A stretch of 64,000 nt of DNA. Source: Chloropicon primus (lineage: Eukaryota). The first letter of the stretch is position 1. Every line of letters begins with the position of its first letter. The notes beneath the pieces were generated by a model that was not told where the DNA came from, did no database searches, and saw nothing but the letters and a program-made list of their open reading frames with translations. The translations under genes and the position numbers were made by a program. Positions 3,246-31,439 of the stretch are shown here, piece by piece. The stretch lies in the NCBI GenBank assembly GCA_023205875.1, contig CP060755.1, positions 1,674,001 to 1,738,000 on the forward strand, written 5' to 3'.

Positions 3246-3354
3246 GGGGCGAAGGAGAAGAAGAAGCGGGCGAATCGAATCGAATCGAATGATGGATTGA
3301 ATTGAATTGGATTTGTGTGTTGTATAGTTTGTTCACAAAACCGCAGCGAGCTCC

Positions 3355-4104
3355 CTAAGGCGTCGGTACGGTGAAGCTCAGTCTGTTCACGCGGAGGTTG
3401 AAGGGGGGCTTGCCGTTTTGGGCAGCACCCTTCGGGGGCCACTCGGTCGGGAAGTCCACCCCCACCGCGGCTCTCACGGTGCCATAAGGTCCGAAGACGT
3501 CCACCTTCTCGTCGAACTCGATCCCGTGGGACGTGAAGTGGAGCCCCGTCGAAACGTCGTTCCTCAGTCGCACCCCGACGAAAGCCTTTCGGGGGACCTC
3601 GCCCCGGCTCAACTCCTGGAAGCACTCGAGGGGGAGGTTGACTTGGGTTTCGACGACGAATTTCGACGAGGGGTGCGGCCTGACCAGCTGCTTGTACTGC
3701 AGGGTCGGCACGGGGAGCGCTTTCAGCCGAATGTGGTCCCCCACCTTGAGCCTGCACTTGGGAAGGATCCCGCCAGAGCTGTCGACGGCGATTCCCGCCG
3801 CGAGGTCGACCTGGGGCCTCCTCGCGAAGACGTAAGGATCGAACGCCATTCTCCTGTACGCCTTGACCCTCAGCCCGCCCAGCCCCCCCCGGAAATGATG
3901 GTCGTGGTCGTGGTCGTCCTCGTCGTCGTAGCGCCTCCCCCTCCTCCTGGCGATGTCCACCTTCACCGTGCCGAACGTCGCCCGAGAGAGCGCCCTCAGC
4001 GGCAAGAGGCACACGCTCCTGACGACGCCCCCGACGCTCCGCCGCGACGAGGGGTCCGACGACGGCGAGGTCTCCGGGGTCTCCGGGGTCGTGTCGCCCT
4101 CCAT
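3355..4104 (-). CDS. Hypothetical beta-strand-rich protein
   Basis: ORF with host-like codon usage between two genes; no family recognised. Confidence 0.55.
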   Translation of the reverse strand: MEGDTTPETPETSPSSDPSSRRSVGGVVRSVCLLPLRALSRATFGTVKVDIARRRGRRYDDEDDHDHDHHFRGGLGGLRVKAYRRMAFDPYVFARRPQVDLAAGIAVDSSGGILPKCRLKVGDHIRLKALPVPTLQYKQLVRPHPSSKFVVETQVNLPLECFQELSRGEVPRKAFVGVRLRNDVSTGLHFTSHGIEFDEKVDVFGPYGTVRAAVGVDFPTEWPPKGAAQNGKPPFNLRVNRLSFTVPTP

Positions 4105-26422: not shown

Positions 26423-26547
26423 TTACAAGTCCTCCGCAGGGAAGCCTCGCACGGGAGGAACCGCCAACGCCGTCTTCCTGAGCTCCAGAACTTCACCCTC
26501 GTCGAGCTGCCAACCCACCGCTTAGCGTAGCCCAAAAAGCATTCACA

Positions 26548-26597
<50 letters not shown>

Positions 26598-27717
26598 AGC
26601 GTGGGAGATACAAAGGACAATGGAAGCTGCCCTTGCCTGACTCACCGCCCATGATGTCCTCGACCTGTTCCCTGTTTTTCGCCCCCGGAATCACAGTTAC
26701 GTCTGGATTGCAAAGCAGCCAGTTCAGCGCAACCTGCGTGCTGGATTTTCCTCCGTGGTTTTCGCCAATCTCCTTCATGAGCTCCAGCAATGGCTTTGCC
26801 TTCCTCATGAACTCCTGATTGTAGATCCTGGACCTCGCGCCGCTCGGCAAGTTGTCCTCGTCGTACTTTGAGGTGAGGATTCCTTGTGCCAAGGGCGAGT
26901 AGGCGATGACTGTCACACCAAGCTCCCTGCACTTCTCCAAAACCCCGTTCGTCTCCGGCAGGCGGTAAAGCAAGTTATAGTGAATCTGGTTGGAGGCCAG
27001 TGGCACTCCTAACTCTTTCAGCCGCTTGTGCGCCTCAGCAAGGCGCTTGTCGCTGTAGTTGGAAACACCAACACTCTTGGTGAGACCCTGCTTCACGCAC
27101 TCCTCCAGGCCTTCAAGGTACTCGTCGTTGAACCAAAGGCCCGGCCAGTGCAGCTGGTAAAGGTCGCAAGACTCTGTCTTGCACCGAGAGAGCGAGGCAC
27201 GGAGAGCATCAGGGACCGCGCCCTTGGAGAATCGCCAGGGAAGCGCCGCGAACTTGGTCGCGATTTTCGGCCTCGCCAAAGGAATTCCTGCCTCGCCAGT
27301 CGTCATGGAGTCCCTGATGAACCTGCCGAGGATCCTCTCGCTCTCTCCTCCTATGCCGCCGTAAACTTCTGCCGTGTCGATCCAAGCATCCTCTTCGGCG
27401 AGCTCCAGGTAAGCGTCGTACGCTCCCCGCGCGAGTCCCTCCTTCTCCGCAGACCAGCCGTCGTTCCAATAGAGTGCGTCGCCCCAAGACCACGCTCCGA
27501 TGCCGATCGGCGCAACCTTCGTCGGGCCCAAGTCTCTCGACGAGGACGTCACGAGCTCCTCCGTCCCAGTCCCAGCACTCGAAGCGATCCTCGTCCTGGC
27601 CCTGGCCCTGTTCCTCGTGCTCGTTGTCTTCCTCCAAGGCGCCGCCGCGTTGATGCCCCCCGCCGTCCTCAGCGCTCCCCCCCTCGTAGCCATCTTCTCA
27701 CCCACCACCACGTCCAT
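26423..27717 (-). CDS. Plastid aldo-keto reductase (pyridoxal-reductase-like); last exon ~26520-26423
   Basis: IGIGAWSWGD, IDTAEVYG, ATKFAALPWR, LYQLHWPG and AYSPLAQG; GTGAGT donor then exon AVGWQLDEGEV...FPAEDL*. Confidence 0.88.
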
Positions 27718-27953
27718 ACTCCACGCCCTCGCTCGTCCCAGTCCTAGTCCGTTATTATGTCCTCCATTTTGGGCCACAAAAACAGCATCTGTTGGAGGTT
27801 TTCCCCTGTTGGTGGGATTCCAGTGTATACCAGTTTGGTCACACCCAAAGGACAACCCACAAAGCGTTTTTTTCGTGTTCTCACTTGCTGGACAAGGCCA
27901 ATCTATAGTTACGAGGAGTTACGAGGAGGGCAGCGAGTGAAACCCTACCGGTC

Positions 27954-30125
27954 ATGGCGCGATCAGGGAAGCGCCGTAAGAAAAAGGAGAAGCAGGGGAG
28001 TGGCTCGACGAGTTCCACAAGGAGGTCGCACTCTGGCGAGAGTCATGCTCAGGGCGCTTCGAAGTCGGGGCAGGAGTCTCCGACGACGGAGCGGCCGTTA
28101 CTTCGGTTCTGGAATCAGGCGTTGAAGTGGCTCTACGAGAAGTGCATGCTTCCTATCGCGGACGACCCCGCCTCTGCGGGTGAGGGTTCGAGCACGCCTC
28201 GCAAGAAGCGGGGGGGGAAGCGGAAGGAGAAGCCGCTGGACGACCCCGCCTCTGCTTTCGAGGAGGGTTCGAGCACGCCTCGCAAGAAGCGGGGGGGGAA
28301 GCGGAAGGGGCGTCCGCCGGAGGCGGACGCCTCTGCGGGTGAGAGTTCGAGCTCGTCAGGCAAGCCTCGCAAGAAGCCTCGCAAGAAGGGCAAGAAGAAG
28401 AACAAGAAGAAGGGTAAGAAGAAGAAGAACAAGAGGGGGAAGAAAGCAGGGAAGCAGCCGGGTGGCTTGGCGGACGACAGCGTGAAGAAGACCTGGTTCT
28501 CATCGATGAAGAGAGAACTTGAAGAGGTAAAGTGTCCGAAGACGGGATGGAGGTCGTGCTTGAACCTTCCAGAAGATTCTGTGGTATCCGTGGAGACATT
28601 GCAGTCGCCCGCCAAAAGGAAGAGGGGGCAGAAACTGAAGACCTCCAAGCTATTGTCGGAGCGAACGGTGATACGGACGAGGAAGCTGAGGATGCGCTTG
28701 AACCCTGAGCAGGCGAAGTGCCTTTGCAACTGGATGGGAGCTGCGCGTTTCACATACAACAAGTGTTTGGAGGCGGTCAAGAAGGAGGGTTTTCCGCTGG
28801 TTTGGACCGTCCTGCTGGACAGATTTGTGACGGCCAAACCGCGACGCCCTGAGGTCTTTGAGGGCCTGGAGAAAGAGCTGAAAGAAATCCAATGCTCTCC
28901 ACGGCCATGGACAAAACAGGAGGCAGAGCTTTTCGCGGCCAGAGAGAAGAGACTCGAGAGCCAAATTGGAGGCAGACGATTTCGCGCCGAAGTGGCCAAG
29001 GACCGGGACTACGTTAGCGGGGCCTTTGTAAATCAGAAGCATCCTTGGCTGAAGGATACCCCCTGTGCCATCAGACAAGCTGCCGTGCGAAGTCTCATCA
29101 AGGCATGGGATTCGAACATCGCGAAGCAGGAAGCGATGAAGGAGCGCGGCGAGGAGAAGGGGCACCGCTTCGTTCTCAAGTATCGTCAACGTCAGCAACC
29201 GAGCTCTTGGACCATTGAAATTGATGCAAGAGAGTTAAAGAACGTGGAGACGATCGAAAGGCCAAACACGAGGCACAAGGATGACACCAAGCACAACAAA
29301 CGACGCAAGTGGACCAAGCTGGAGGTGTTCAAGAAGAAGATGGCCGGCGGGCCCCTGTACTTGACGGAGGAGATCCCCGGGGGCAAGATCGAGGGTGCCG
29401 TGAAGATCACAAGAAATCGCCTTGGGCAGTTCCACATGCACATTCCTATCGCGACGCCATGGGATCGCCTGCCACCCCTGAAGCCTGAGAAGAAGCGGAA
29501 GGTTGTCGCCCTGGATCCGGGAGTCAGGACCTTTCAGACGTCGTACTCGCCGCAAGAAGGCGTCGGGGAGTATGCCAAGGGCGAGCGAGGCTTCGCGAGG
29601 CTGTTCCACCTCTGCCGGAGGATTGATGAGATCATTTCCGAGCGCAAAGACCCAAAGGTGAAGCTCCCTTACCTCGACCGCCGCGACTTGAAGAGACAGC
29701 AATACGCCTGCATGGAGAAACTTCGAGGTCTGACGAACGAGCTTCACAAAAAGGTAGCCAACGATCTATGCAGGAGGTTCGACACAATCCTCCTCCCGGA
29801 GTTCAAGTCCCAAGACATGGTGAAGAAGAACAACAACGGGAGACGCCGAGTGATCAGGAAGAAGACGGCTCGCACGCTCTTGACGTTGAGGCACTATGCG
29901 TTCAGAACGTTCTTGGCTTCCAAGGTGCTCTTGCACGGCAGTGAGCTGGCGATCGTGACGGAGGAGTACACCTCCAAGACCTGTGGCAGGTGCGGACACA
30001 TCAAGAAGAACCTGGGTGGAGCAGAGGTGTACAAGTGCCAGAAGTGTGGCTTCAAGTGCGGTCGGGATGTGAACGGGGCACGCAACGTCCTCCTGAAGCA
30101 CTTGCGTCAACCAAAAAGTGTGTAA
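27954..30125 (+). CDS. Fanzor (eukaryotic TnpB-family RNA-guided endonuclease), Fanzor2/IS607-TnpB-like
   Basis: OrfB-type HTH (RMRLNPEQ...WMGAARFTYNKCL); RuvC-I VVALDPGVRTF (D521); RuvC-II ILLPEF (E616); EEYTSKTCGRCG...YKCQKCGF zinc ribbon; RuvC-III RDVNGARN (D705). Confidence 0.95.
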   Translation: MARSGKRRKKKEKQGSGSTSSTRRSHSGESHAQGASKSGQESPTTERPLLRFWNQALKWLYEKCMLPIADDPASAGEGSSTPRKKRGGKRKEKPLDDPASAFEEGSSTPRKKRGGKRKGRPPEADASAGESSSSSGKPRKKPRKKGKKKNKKKGKKKKNKRGKKAGKQPGGLADDSVKKTWFSSMKRELEEVKCPKTGWRSCLNLPEDSVVSVETLQSPAKRKRGQKLKTSKLLSERTVIRTRKLRMRLNPEQAKCLCNWMGAARFTYNKCLEAVKKEGFPLVWTVLLDRFVTAKPRRPEVFEGLEKELKEIQCSPRPWTKQEAELFAAREKRLESQIGGRRFRAEVAKDRDYVSGAFVNQKHPWLKDTPCAIRQAAVRSLIKAWDSNIAKQEAMKERGEEKGHRFVLKYRQRQQPSSWTIEIDARELKNVETIERPNTRHKDDTKHNKRRKWTKLEVFKKKMAGGPLYLTEEIPGGKIEGAVKITRNRLGQFHMHIPIATPWDRLPPLKPEKKRKVVALDPGVRTFQTSYSPQEGVGEYAKGERGFARLFHLCRRIDEIISERKDPKVKLPYLDRRDLKRQQYACMEKLRGLTNELHKKVANDLCRRFDTILLPEFKSQDMVKKNNNGRRRVIRKKTARTLLTLRHYAFRTFLASKVLLHGSELAIVTEEYTSKTCGRCGHIKKNLGGAEVYKCQKCGFKCGRDVNGARNVLLKHLRQPKSV
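28160..28390 (+). repeat. ~78-bp coding tandem repeat in the Fanzor N-terminus (2 full copies plus 1 degenerate)
   Basis: GGACGACCCCGCCTCTGC...GGGTTCGAGCACGCCTCGCAAGAAGCGGGGGGGGAAGCGGAAGG at 28160 and 28238. Confidence 0.85.
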
Positions 30126-30421
30126 CTCCTCAGGGTTGCACATACGTTTGTTAGTACGGGCTGCCGTGCGTGGGCGGAAGTATTCGTTCATGTACGGTGG
30201 AATGGTCGTGGTAGGGCTGAATTACCCTGCCGAGAAACTTACAAACTCGGTGAAACGACCTTTGCAGAAAACTAACAGGTAAGTAGGGGCCGGTCTCCGT
30301 TCTCTCTTTCAGTGGAAAGGAGAACTTGCCTTTGTGCTTCCAGTATTGACTGTGAATTCCCTACCGTCCTTTCGTGACTTTTCTGTGTGCTGTTTTTGAT
30401 CTGATGTCTGAACACCATAAC
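30121..30421 (+). ncRNA. Candidate Fanzor omegaRNA scaffold
   Basis: Non-coding, directly 3' of Fanzor; at least 8 complementary stem pairs seen by eye. Confidence 0.6.
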
Positions 30422-30479
30422 AGCATCATCGCTCATGGGCCCATAGATTACAGGGGGGGGTGTTTGTTGTCTTTTGTTG

Positions 30480-31439
30480 TTACAAGTACTGGTTTCCGCT
30501 GATGTTGATCCCGCTGTCTTTCAGGGCCTTGGCCAAGATATCCAGTTGCAAAGTGTCTTGGGGTCTGCCGTCTTTCCTGACGTTGCCGGCCTGCCCCTGG
30601 GCCTTCTTCGTCAACCTGGGCAAAGGAAACGAAAGAGAAACGTTCTTTCCTGTGAGCCACGAAACCGAAGCCATTCCCTCACGCGTGTCGAGCCGCATTT
30701 CACCCTCTTTTCTCTCCCCAAAGTGAAAAGTGTGGCGAGCTGAACGGCGCTCGAGAAGGGTGGCCGCCCCGAACCGAGAAAAACGCAAGGCAAACTCCAC
30801 TTACTCTAAGGCGTCCCCGAGAACCCTGCCCAGAAACTCCTCCGTCGAGGCTGCTATAATCTTCGCGCTGCGCCGAGTCCACACACGCAAGATCAGAAAC
30901 AGCACGCGCGGAGAGTCGTGGCGGTTGGGTTCACAACACGCGCAGAAAAAGAGAGCAGAGAGCGTTGTCGGTGTCAGTCGCTTCCTGCCCCAACCAAGGG
31001 GCGGGACAGAAAATGCAGTCGCACTTACACCTGCGGGTCCTTGATGGACAGGCCTTGCTTTTTGGCATAGTACTCCACCAGCTCCACGGGAACCTGATTC
31101 CGGGCGTAATTGTCGTCGCCACCAAGTGAAAAGACAGTCCCACGTTCGTCAGTTTCGTCCGGAACACTCCACCATCGCACACCAGAGTCCCGGCTCGTCC
31201 CGACTTTCGTTCGTTCGTTCGTGCGTGCGTGCGTGCGCGTCCCGTTCCCCTCGTTTCTCTGTGCTCTGTTGCTGGCCCCTCCTTCTCCTCGTCCCGTCCG
31301 TTCGCTCCGTCCCGTTCGCTCCGTCCTGTCCCGTCCCGTTCGTTCGTTCGTTCATTCTTACCGCTGGCGTGTGTTCCCTCACTGCCTCCCTGACCTCCCT
31401 CCCCTTCCTCACCCACTCCTCTGCCCCCTGCTCCGCCAT
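30480..31439 (-). CDS. TAF10: TFIID subunit TAF10-like (multi-exon)
   Basis: Spliced exons give VPVELVEYYAKKQGLSIKDPQV / AKIIAASTEEFLGRVLGDALE / ...TLQLDILAKALKDSGINI, the TAF10 histone-fold pattern. Confidence 0.72.

What the first reader, a model, noticed from the sequence alone, without database searches (positions are those of the whole stretch)
27954..30125. Intact Fanzor (eukaryotic TnpB/OMEGA RNA-guided nuclease) in a picoalgal nuclear genome
Seen: an intronless 723-aa ORF among ordinary intron-containing algal genes. It has an OrfB-type HTH, RuvC-I 'VVALDPG' (D521), RuvC-II 'ILLPEF' (E616), a CxxC...CxxC zinc ribbon after 'EEYTSKT', and RuvC-III 'RDVNGARN' (D705). All three catalytic acidic residues are present. 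Established: this architecture defines TnpB/Fanzor, the Cas12 relatives that cut DNA using an omegaRNA guide, and the canonical RuvC-II Glu position is the Fanzor2/IS607-TnpB arrangement. Inference: this is a potentially active, programmable eukaryotic nuclease, long for its class, with no transposase partner nearby.
Basis: partly seen in the sequence, partly recalled or inferred. Interest (0 to 1): 0.92.

Follow-up and report, generated by a model that had tools for sequence, protein, structure and literature searches.

The report
Algal Fanzor with spliced guide RNA
A known jumping gene of a marine picoalga encodes an intact Fanzor, a likely RNA-guided DNA cutter, and its RNA is likely spliced exactly where the guide is predicted to begin, so splicing would supply the sequence it aims at.

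Summary
The 723-aa ORF is real and is a Fanzor2, but not a discovery in itself. It is one of about 25 copies in Chloropicon primus, published as 'Fanzor2*' in a non-autonomous cut-and-paste transposon (Yoon 2023). Here the element spans 27790-30422, with TGTT...AACA ends and a GCATC duplication. What looks new is the RNA. The omegaRNA scaffold (30116-30278, fold z -5.9) ends 144 nt inside the element, at the boundary that relatives define. That boundary is exactly a consensus splice donor, AG|GTAAGT. RNA contigs from five runs break or branch to foreign sequence at or within 3 nt of it; DNA depth does not fall. All 7 insertion sites I could read offer an AG within 5 nt of the element's end. 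Likely mechanism: splicing removes the transposon tail and joins the scaffold to flanking sequence, making a guide against the empty site. The acceptor, cleavage, TAM and mobilising transposase are not shown, and 3 of 7 sites would self-target.

The parts
27790..30422 (+). Non-autonomous Fanzor2* transposon, 2633 bp
   Evidence: Loose ends of other copies at 27790 (X1, X7) and 30422 (X3, X4); X8 pieces stop at the same two places; DNA contig depth rises from about 100-170 in the flanks to thousands inside
27785..27789 (+). Left target-site duplication GCATC
   Evidence: Sequence; 5-nt variable TSD published for this family
27790..27819 (+). Left end, degenerate inverted repeat starting TGTT
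   Evidence: 4 terminal bases exact, 11 of 30 ungapped positions match the right end's reverse complement; single match in the window
27954..30125 (+). Fanzor2 ORF, 723 aa, no intron
   Evidence: fold search top hit ApmFz2 9b0l, E 9e-14
27954..28655 (+). N-terminal extension (residues 1-234): 29% K+R, basic NLS-like runs, 81-nt tandem repeats, faint relic of an overlapping IS607 TnpA frame
   Evidence: relic only weakly supported (phmmer E 7e-4 to L083 TnpA among 63 ORFs; a TnpA profile found nothing)
29514..29516 (+). D521, RuvC-I (DPG motif)
   Evidence: 23 of 23 in A1
29796..29801 (+). P615-E616: canonical RuvC-II position replaced by Pro; E616 not conserved
   Evidence: P 23 of 23, E 10 of 23
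29961..29963 (+). E670, shifted RuvC-II glutamate (Ealt)
   Evidence: 23 of 23; aligns with ApmFz2 E467
29982..30047 (+). Zinc finger C677-C698
30066..30068 (+). D705, RuvC-III
   Evidence: 23 of 23
30116..30278 (+). Predicted omegaRNA scaffold, closed by a stem between 30149-30155 and 30271-30277
   Evidence: Fold z -5.86, 0 of 200 shuffles as stable; stem arms kept in L080, L081, L083, L084 with changes on both sides read by eye; stem ends 2 nt before the mapped boundary in most multi-copy relatives
30279..30284 (+). 5' splice donor GTAAGT (preceded by AG) at the predicted scaffold/guide boundary
   Evidence: Only plus-strand GTAAGT in the element; same hexamer as 2 of 4 mapped host donors; RNA contigs end or branch at 30278-30281 in X3-X7
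30279..30423 (+). Candidate 145-nt intron: transposon tail with pyrimidine tracts, branch-like CTGAT at 30401, acceptor CAG made from the terminal CA plus the first TSD base
   Evidence: weak fold, z -1.53; the spliced joint for this copy was not listed or 44
30393..30422 (+). Right end, ending AACA
30423..30427 (+). Right target-site duplication GCATC
30424..30443 (+). Predicted guide after splicing (flank sequence; matches the empty site 3' of CAG)
   Evidence: Inference; unique in the window
26521..27760 (-). Neighbour: aldo-keto reductase gene, divergent, one mapped intron at 26521-26645
30480..31400 (-). Neighbour: TAF10-like gene, convergent, three mapped introns; its 3' UTR reaches the insertion site (upper coordinate approximate)
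   Evidence: Last exon matches Pfam TAF10 at E 0.003, below the cut-off; joints

Best explanation
This is one copy of the multi-copy Chloropicon primus Fanzor2 transposon, carrying an intact gene for a likely RNA-guided DNA nuclease, and its transcript is likely spliced at the predicted end of the omegaRNA scaffold, which would join the scaffold to flanking host sequence as the guide. Shown: element ends, 5-bp duplication, D521/E670/D705, a stably folding RNA at 30116-30278, a consensus donor at 30279, and RNA contigs that leave the element there. Inferred steps: (1) an IS607-type Fanzor2 lost its serine recombinase and was captured inside TGT...ACA ends moved in trans by an unidentified DDE/integrase-type enzyme; (2) capture left the old right end 144 nt inside, which would freeze the guide as transposon sequence; (3) the spliceosome removes that tail from GTAAGT to an AG at or just past the junction, co-opted from the target duplication as in introners; (4) the RNP, with a TAM probably ending in AG (CAG at the empty sites read), cuts the empty allele about 17-22 nt into the flank, and repair from the filled homologue copies the element, keeping and spreading it in this diploid alga.
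For: Family: cluster of 46 with named members all C. primus, 25 copies with RNA depth in Lemieux Suppl. Data 6, three heterozygous 2.66-2.71 kb insertions, i.e. recent mobility. Boundary: multi-copy relatives diverge right after ...TAGCAG...TAGCGG or ...TAAGCG; the closing stem ends 2 nt before that point with at least 5 Watson-Crick pairs in 7 of 9 relatives, as in the ApmFz2 structure (C-2, scaffold to 0); here that rule gives G30278. A GTAAGT at one given position has a background rate near 1e-4, GTRAG 1.4e-3. RNA: X3, X4, X6, X7 carry spliced TAF10 joints at both or one intron, X5 at one, so they hold RNA; their contigs end at 30278 (X4, X6, X7) or run on into foreign sequence from 30278-30281 (X3, X4, X5, X7). 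Contig depth at 30356 versus 30218 is 105/1888, 34/282, 181/1280 (X4, X6, X7), whereas in DNA runs depth at 30378 versus 30218 is 11426/9723 and 7981/3624 (a hint only, contig depth is flat). GTAAGT is kept in both published copies whose right end is visible and in a deletion derivative, while neighbouring bases differ in two of these. Sites: 7 of 7 give an AG within 5 nt of the end (0.48 each by chance), 4 of 7 start with AG (P 7e-4), and 5 of 5 with a known upstream base read CAG (0.088 each). One X7 contig starts exactly at 30418, where spliced and unspliced forms of this copy would branch. Copies are mosaic: 187 of 351 site pairs show all four combinations, as break-driven gene conversion would give.
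Against: No joint 30278 to 30424 was listed for this copy (tables truncated), and the foreign continuations could not be placed because no genome is held, so the acceptor is unknown. Only contigs, no raw reads. In 3 of 7 sites, this copy included, the filled junction also reads CAG plus guide, so a 3-nt TAM would self-target. Stronger-looking acceptors lie inside the tail (30312, 30343), though no joint to them was listed. The junction acceptor has only 50% pyrimidines upstream. The site statistics are post hoc, rest on 7 sites, two of them contig consensuses (agreement 0.92 and 0.68), and assume a 5-bp duplication for left flanks. Mosaicism may partly be a polishing artefact and pools two strains. 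No cleavage assay; another algal Fanzor formed an RNP without cutting. No transposase identified.
Confidence: 0.55

Rival explanations
1. Ordinary Fanzor2*: the working omegaRNA is unspliced and long (about 300 nt), takes the tail, TIR and first TSD base into its scaffold, and uses the terminal TAACA as the 3' arm of the closing stem. Splicing at 30278 concerns only the mRNA.
For: Yoon 2023 proposes TIR and TSD inside the scaffold for Fanzor1 and Fanzor2*. TAACAG occurs at both 30273-30278 and 30418-30423, so the end could pair 5 bp with the same 5' arm, and the guide for this copy would be the same.
Against: The internal arm pairs 7 bp and sits in the conserved register; the tail folds no better than shuffles; in the 4 of 7 sites that begin with AG the last scaffold base would be A rather than the G seen in relatives; most RNA contig depth leaves at 30278.
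Confidence: 0.2
2. Splicing is real but lands on assorted downstream host exons, or simply disarms the element. Guides are arbitrary or absent and Fanzor is a passenger copied by a trans-acting transposase.
For: The acceptors are unmapped; the foreign continuations are long (up to 255+ nt) and differ between runs; self-targeting at 3 of 7 sites argues against an efficient locus-specific guide.
Against: All 17 longer copies keep the catalytic pattern; the donor coincides to the base with the scaffold end; insertion sites are enriched for AG and CAG at the junction.
Confidence: 0.17
3. Fixed-guide system: the unspliced RNA uses the internal sequence from 30279 as a constant guide against some other target (a virus, a rival element or a host gene).
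For: The position after the scaffold is constant transposon sequence; some unspliced RNA is present.
Against: Bases after GTAAGT vary between copies; no second match in the window (the rest of the genome could not be searched); it does not explain the splice consensus.
Confidence: 0.05
4. The branch at 30278 reflects DNA copies that end at the old IS607 right end, not splicing.
For: Only contigs were seen and the loose-end lists were cut (99 and 19 rows hidden).
Against: No depth drop and no listed loose end at 30278 in DNA runs X1, X2; both published copies with a visible right end keep the tail; the site is a perfect donor.
Confidence: 0.03

Closest known systems
Chloropicon primus Fanzor2* (Yoon et al. 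2023, PMC10711439; 'IS605 transposase' family of Lemieux et al. 2019, PMC6731263)
   Same: Same family: 95.6-98.8% identical over residues 175-723 to 16 named copies; degenerate TIR, variable 5-nt TSD, no autonomous partner found.
   Different: In the passages, section and supplement text I saw there is no omegaRNA boundary, splice donor, TAM or activity for it; the figures (2A, 4A, S3) were not visible to me.
ApmFz2 / ISvMimi1 Fanzor2 (PDB 9B0L; PMC11832414, PMC10530073)
   Same: Best solved-structure hit by sequence (E 2.5e-19) and fold; DPG, shifted Glu, zinc finger, N-terminal extension, RNA stem ending 2 nt before the guide.
   Different: ApmFz2 sits in an IS607 element with TnpA, and its scaffold ends at the element's end (GGG TAM); here TnpA is gone, ends are TIR/TSD type and the scaffold end is 144 nt internal.
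IStrons (IS605/IS607 with group I introns; PMC10690162)
   Same: Splicing and omegaRNA share the transposon's right end; TnpB-driven homing of the empty site is shown there.
   Different: There a self-splicing intron removes the whole element and severs scaffold from guide (antagonistic). Here a spliceosomal-type intron would remove only the tail and join scaffold to guide.
Introner elements of Micromonas (review PMC11282704)
   Same: Donor brought by the element, acceptor AG co-opted from the target duplication.
   Different: Introners splice the whole element out of host mRNA; here the intron would lie in the element's own transcript and serve a guide RNA.
Integrase-type DNA transposons with TGT...ACA ends (IS481EU; Ginger2 by TSD length; PMC10045372)
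   Same: TGT...ACA termini as in IS481EU; 4-5 bp TSD as given for Ginger2; IS481EU also makes about 25-bp duplications.
   Different: No transposase was found here, so the superfamily cannot be assigned.

Membership tests
Fanzor2 | DPG at RuvC-I | tested here: met
   D521-P522-G523, 23 of 23 in A1
Fanzor2 | Shifted RuvC-II Glu six residues before the zinc finger; canonical position Pro or Gly | tested here: met
   Matches the published pattern DPGx(120,160)Ex6CxxC...D; P615, E670
Fanzor2 | TnpB-like fold with HTH/WED/REC, RuvC and zinc finger, nearer ApmFz2 and TnpB than Fanzor1 | tested here: met
   Model of residues 235-723, pLDDT 78; top hit 9b0l E 9e-14, SpuFz1 E 5e-6
Fanzor2 | Phylogenetic link to IS607 TnpA-bearing elements | tested here: met
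   Quick tree of 44 rows: in a 19-row clade (SH-aLRT 100) with TnpA-bearing L083, L084; the careful search did not finish, no Fanzor1 outgroup, 20 of 64 picked rows dropped
Fanzor2 | Eukaryotic genomic context, not a contaminant | tested here: met
   Spliced neighbours, DNA contigs continuous from flanks into the ends, dispersed copies in two named assemblies
Fanzor2 | Structured 3' omegaRNA with a terminal long-range stem | tested here: met
   (predicted; no Rfam family)
Fanzor2 | RNA binding, TAM- and guide-dependent DNA cleavage | not testable with these tools
   Needs RNP and cleavage assays
IS607 / IS607EU element | Serine recombinase TnpA in the element | tested here: not met
   No TnpA ORF; profile search negative, only a faint relic
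IS607 / IS607EU element | No TIR, no TSD, dinucleotide crossover | tested here: not met
   5-bp TSD and TGTT/AACA ends
Fanzor2* (Fanzor2 in a cut-and-paste transposon) | TIR, TSD, multiple dispersed copies, no transposase | tested here: met
Fanzor2* (Fanzor2 in a cut-and-paste transposon) | TIR and TSD form part of the omegaRNA scaffold (proposed by Yoon 2023) | tested here: inconclusive
   The conserved scaffold end is 144 nt internal and RNA leaves there; the bound RNA was not seen
Canonical TnpB (Ecan) | Catalytic Glu about 50 residues before the zinc finger | tested here: not met
   P615 at that position; E616 variable
IStron | Self-splicing group I intron spanning the element | tested here: not met
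   No Rfam group I match at E up to 1; GT-AG type signals instead
IS481EU / Ginger2 | Encoded or partner DDE transposase of that family | not testable with these tools
   No genome held; only termini and TSD length resemble

The most novel reading that the evidence does not exclude
A Fanzor whose guide RNA is assembled by the spliceosome: an intron starting exactly at the scaffold end removes the transposon's terminus and fuses the scaffold to whatever follows the next AG, so that the 3' splice site doubles as the TAM (CAG), each insertion programs its own guide, alternative acceptors could give several guides per copy, and the empty alleles opposite heterozygous copies carry cleavage scars that record native activity.
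Probability: 0.45. Interest if true: 0.87.

Novelty: new variant of a known kind. Interest (0 to 1): 0.62.

Why it matters
The protein alone is a known, untested family member. If the splicing model holds, it answers how a Fanzor2 stays programmable after capture by a new transposon, by a route different from the published one (absorbing TIR and TSD into the scaffold). It would be a case of spliceosomal splicing building a guide RNA, the reverse of IStrons, and suggests splicing-controlled guides as a design idea. C. primus is diploid, culturable, has about 25 expressed copies and known heterozygous insertions, so the open question of what Fanzors do in their native eukaryotic host (homing at empty alleles) becomes directly testable with existing reads.

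Tried and rejected
Whole genome not held, so other copies could be read only through contig loose ends and a published indel table. No second element end in the window and no right-end match in viral contigs. E616 as catalytic: rejected. An inverted pair CCCCTGT/ACAGGGG near 27803 and 30450 first looked like the ends: rejected by the loose ends at 27790 and 30422. A 9-bp duplication (AACAGCATC) is also present at this site; read as 5 bp plus chance, because other copies share AACA up to 30422. Four foreign RNA continuations were sought in the window and not found. Rfam: two sub-threshold chance hits. TnpA relic: only faint. MAFFT could not align the scaffold's 3' arm across 5 relatives, so no formal covariation count was made. 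The left-end comparison in relatives gave no usable TAM (only 80 of 238 loci passed the motif filter). No empty-site joint was listed in X1-X3, but the junction contigs overlap the element by only 28-30 letters, so homozygosity is not claimed. NCBIfam guided_TnpB scored 95.9, under its cut-off of 100. Four look-ups of earlier scan notes returned nothing. Not used: complex prediction, representatives search, protein atlas.
Full report
Observation. The ORF at 27954-30125 is 723 aa without a stop. It has HTH_OrfB_IS605 and the TNB zinc-ribbon family above cut-off, scores 95.9 against a cut-off of 100 for NCBIfam guided_TnpB, and its best solved relative is mimivirus Fanzor2 by sequence and by fold of a pLDDT-78 model of residues 235-723. 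D521 and D705 are right. E616 is not the second catalytic residue: in an alignment of the protein with 22 close relatives the canonical position is Pro (P615, 23 of 23), E616 is kept in 10 of 23, and E670 in 23 of 23. DPG plus a Glu six residues before the zinc finger is the published Fanzor fingerprint (PMC10711439), and E670 aligns with ApmFz2 E467, whose mutation abolishes cleavage (PMC10530073). The length comes from a basic, low-complexity N-terminal 234 aa with 81-nt repeats.

What it is. The exact protein is in the collection, in a 46-member cluster; 39 of the 40 members read carry names, and all 14 names shown are Chloropicon primus. Lemieux 2019 lists 25 such genes with RNA depth. Yoon 2023 describes them as Fanzor2* in a non-autonomous cut-and-paste transposon with degenerate TIRs and a variable 5-nt TSD, and the preprint says no autonomous partner was found. 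So the headline finding is known. Laying public contigs on the region put the ends at 27790 and 30422, with GCATC on both sides and TGTT...AACA termini. Three heterozygous full-length insertions in Lemieux Suppl. Data 8 show recent movement. A quick tree (44 of 64 picked rows; 20 loci dropped because no full motif-bearing ORF was found) places the protein in a 19-row clade with TnpA-bearing IS607 elements L083 and L084; the nearer L080 and L081 have broken TnpA frames and L082 none.

The RNA. Bases 30116-30278 fold far better than shuffles (z -5.86) and are closed by a 7-bp stem; the 145 nt after them do not (z -1.53). The stem arms recur in L080, L081, L083 and L084 with changes on both sides, read by eye. 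In relatives present in more than one copy, similarity stops after ...TAGCAG...TAGCGG or ...TAAGCG, and in 7 of 9 such loci a stem of at least 5 Watson-Crick pairs ends 2 nt before that point (L087 had 4 pairs, L011 none found). ApmFz2 has the same register (PMC11832414 section 9). Applied here, the scaffold ends at G30278, 144 nt inside the element. The next six bases are GTAAGT, the only plus-strand copy in the element and the same donor as 2 of 4 mapped host introns.

Splicing evidence. X3-X7 contain joints that remove TAF10 introns, so they hold RNA. Their contigs end at 30278 (X4, X6, X7) or continue from 30278-30281 into sequence not on the stretch (X3, X4, X5, X7). Contig depth falls 7- to 18-fold between 30218 and 30356 in X4, X6, X7 and to zero in X5; it falls less in X3 (6507 to 2452 at 30378) and not at all in DNA runs X1 and X2. 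Contig depth is a coarse measure and I treat it as a hint. No joint to the internal acceptors at 30312 or 30343, nor to 30424, was listed, and the tables were truncated. The continuations are not in the window and could not be placed without the genome. One X7 contig starts at 30418, the exact base where spliced and unspliced forms of this copy would diverge, since TAACAG lies at both ends of the candidate intron; the other three RNA contigs end elsewhere (30455, 30437, 30429).

Insertion sites. I could read 7: this one, three from loose ends (X1, X7, X3/X4) and three from the published table. All 7 give an AG within 5 nt of the element's end, counting its terminal A (0.48 each by chance); 4 of 7 begin with AG (P 7e-4); all 5 with a known upstream base have CAG at the empty site (0.088 each). 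These patterns were noticed after the fact, and two sites are contig consensuses. In the commonest arrangement, C then AGNNN duplicated, the empty site reads CAG plus guide while the filled junction reads AAG plus guide, which would discriminate; the host uses an AAG acceptor in the neighbouring gene. In 3 of 7 sites, this one included, the filled junction also reads CAG, which counts against the model unless self-cutting is tolerated.

Mechanism. Most likely the transcript runs through the ORF and scaffold, the spliceosome removes the tail, the scaffold is joined to flank sequence, and the RNP cuts empty alleles so that repair copies the element. Homing by TnpB is shown in bacteria (PMC10690162); here it is inferred. 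All 17 longer C. primus proteins examined keep the catalytic pattern (an 18th, 307 aa, is truncated), and 187 of 351 pairs of variable sites show all four combinations, which fits frequent gene conversion but may include assembly artefacts. Movement to new sites needs a transposase in trans; TGT...ACA ends point to an integrase-type enzyme (PMC10045372), not identified.

Unexplained. The two published insertions whose right end is visible include 25 and 26 nt of flank (23 and 22 nt past the AG), and at the third the reference lacks three bases seen before the left end. These could be deletions of the target in the empty allele, about 25-bp duplications as IS481EU makes, or caller offsets. The cells are cut at 400 letters, so this stays open.

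Literature seen. PMC10711439: passages, section 24, supplement rows and the S3 legend, no figures. Its preprint, PMC12633428, PMC12301720, PMC10530073, PMC10432273, PMC10690162, PMC10045372, PMC11282704, PMC13565253: passages. PMC11832414: passages and section 9. PMC6731263: passages, Suppl. Data 6 whole, Suppl. Data 8 part 1 of 5 plus two searches. Others: listings only. I found no report of a splice donor at a Fanzor scaffold end in searches or in passages 14, 76, 77 and 91; the library lacks most subscription papers, and Yoon's figures may show a C. primus RNA model that I could not see.

Verdict. Known family, corrected active site, and a probably unreported RNA arrangement: identity about 0.99, splicing at 30278 about 0.85, splicing as the source of a working locus-specific guide about 0.5.

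Noticed in passing
P0029 and P0060 (metagenome proteins): 947- and 921-aa proteins with XPG_N and XPG_I (Exo1-like) domains fused to a Fanzor2 that keeps DPG, the shifted Glu and the last Asp. They are 51% identical over their whole length, group in the same subclade as this protein, and were the only 2 of 23 hits with XPG domains. A maintained nuclease-plus-resection fusion would be worth its own look; no DNA context was available.
   Followed up: partly
window 27906 to 30364 (joint in X7) and 28557 (loose ends in X4, X6, X7): Two internally deleted derivatives of the element: one keeps only the ends (MITE-like), the other joins the ORF at 28557 to a variant scaffold end that still has the GTAAGT donor.
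   Followed up: no
L082:749-826, 1335-1412 and 3316-3393: A relative (53% identical) has two inverted 78-nt copies of its post-stop RNA region upstream of the gene, plus 247- and 159-nt direct repeats: another derived end structure without TnpA.
   Followed up: no
L081:2353-2630: In this relative the scaffold end is followed directly by what reads as host coding sequence, i.e. the ancestral arrangement without a tail.
   Followed up: partly
P0005: A C. primus copy annotated with its C-terminus running into unrelated host-like sequence instead of the usual stop.
   Followed up: no
P0028: 885-aa Fanzor2 relative with a weak metallo-beta-lactamase-fold match at its N-terminus; one sequence, may be a gene-calling join.
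   Followed up: no
window 30290-30312: The tail carries a short pyrimidine-rich tandem unit whose copy number varies between element copies.
   Followed up: no
Lemieux Suppl. Data 8, chr17:327257: A 31.7-kb deletion is called two bases from a heterozygous insertion of the element; either an alignment artefact with another copy or a break-associated rearrangement.
   Followed up: no
L160-L238: Closest prokaryotic relatives (up to 44% in the best segment) include many multi-copy elements in marine Dehalococcoidia/SAR202 and Poribacteria as well as cyanobacteria.
   Followed up: no
window 27760-27789 and 30428-30480: The element sits in a gap of about 150 bp between the TAF10-like stop and the aldo-keto reductase start; TAF10 3' UTR contigs reach the junction, antisense to the predicted guide.
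   Followed up: partly
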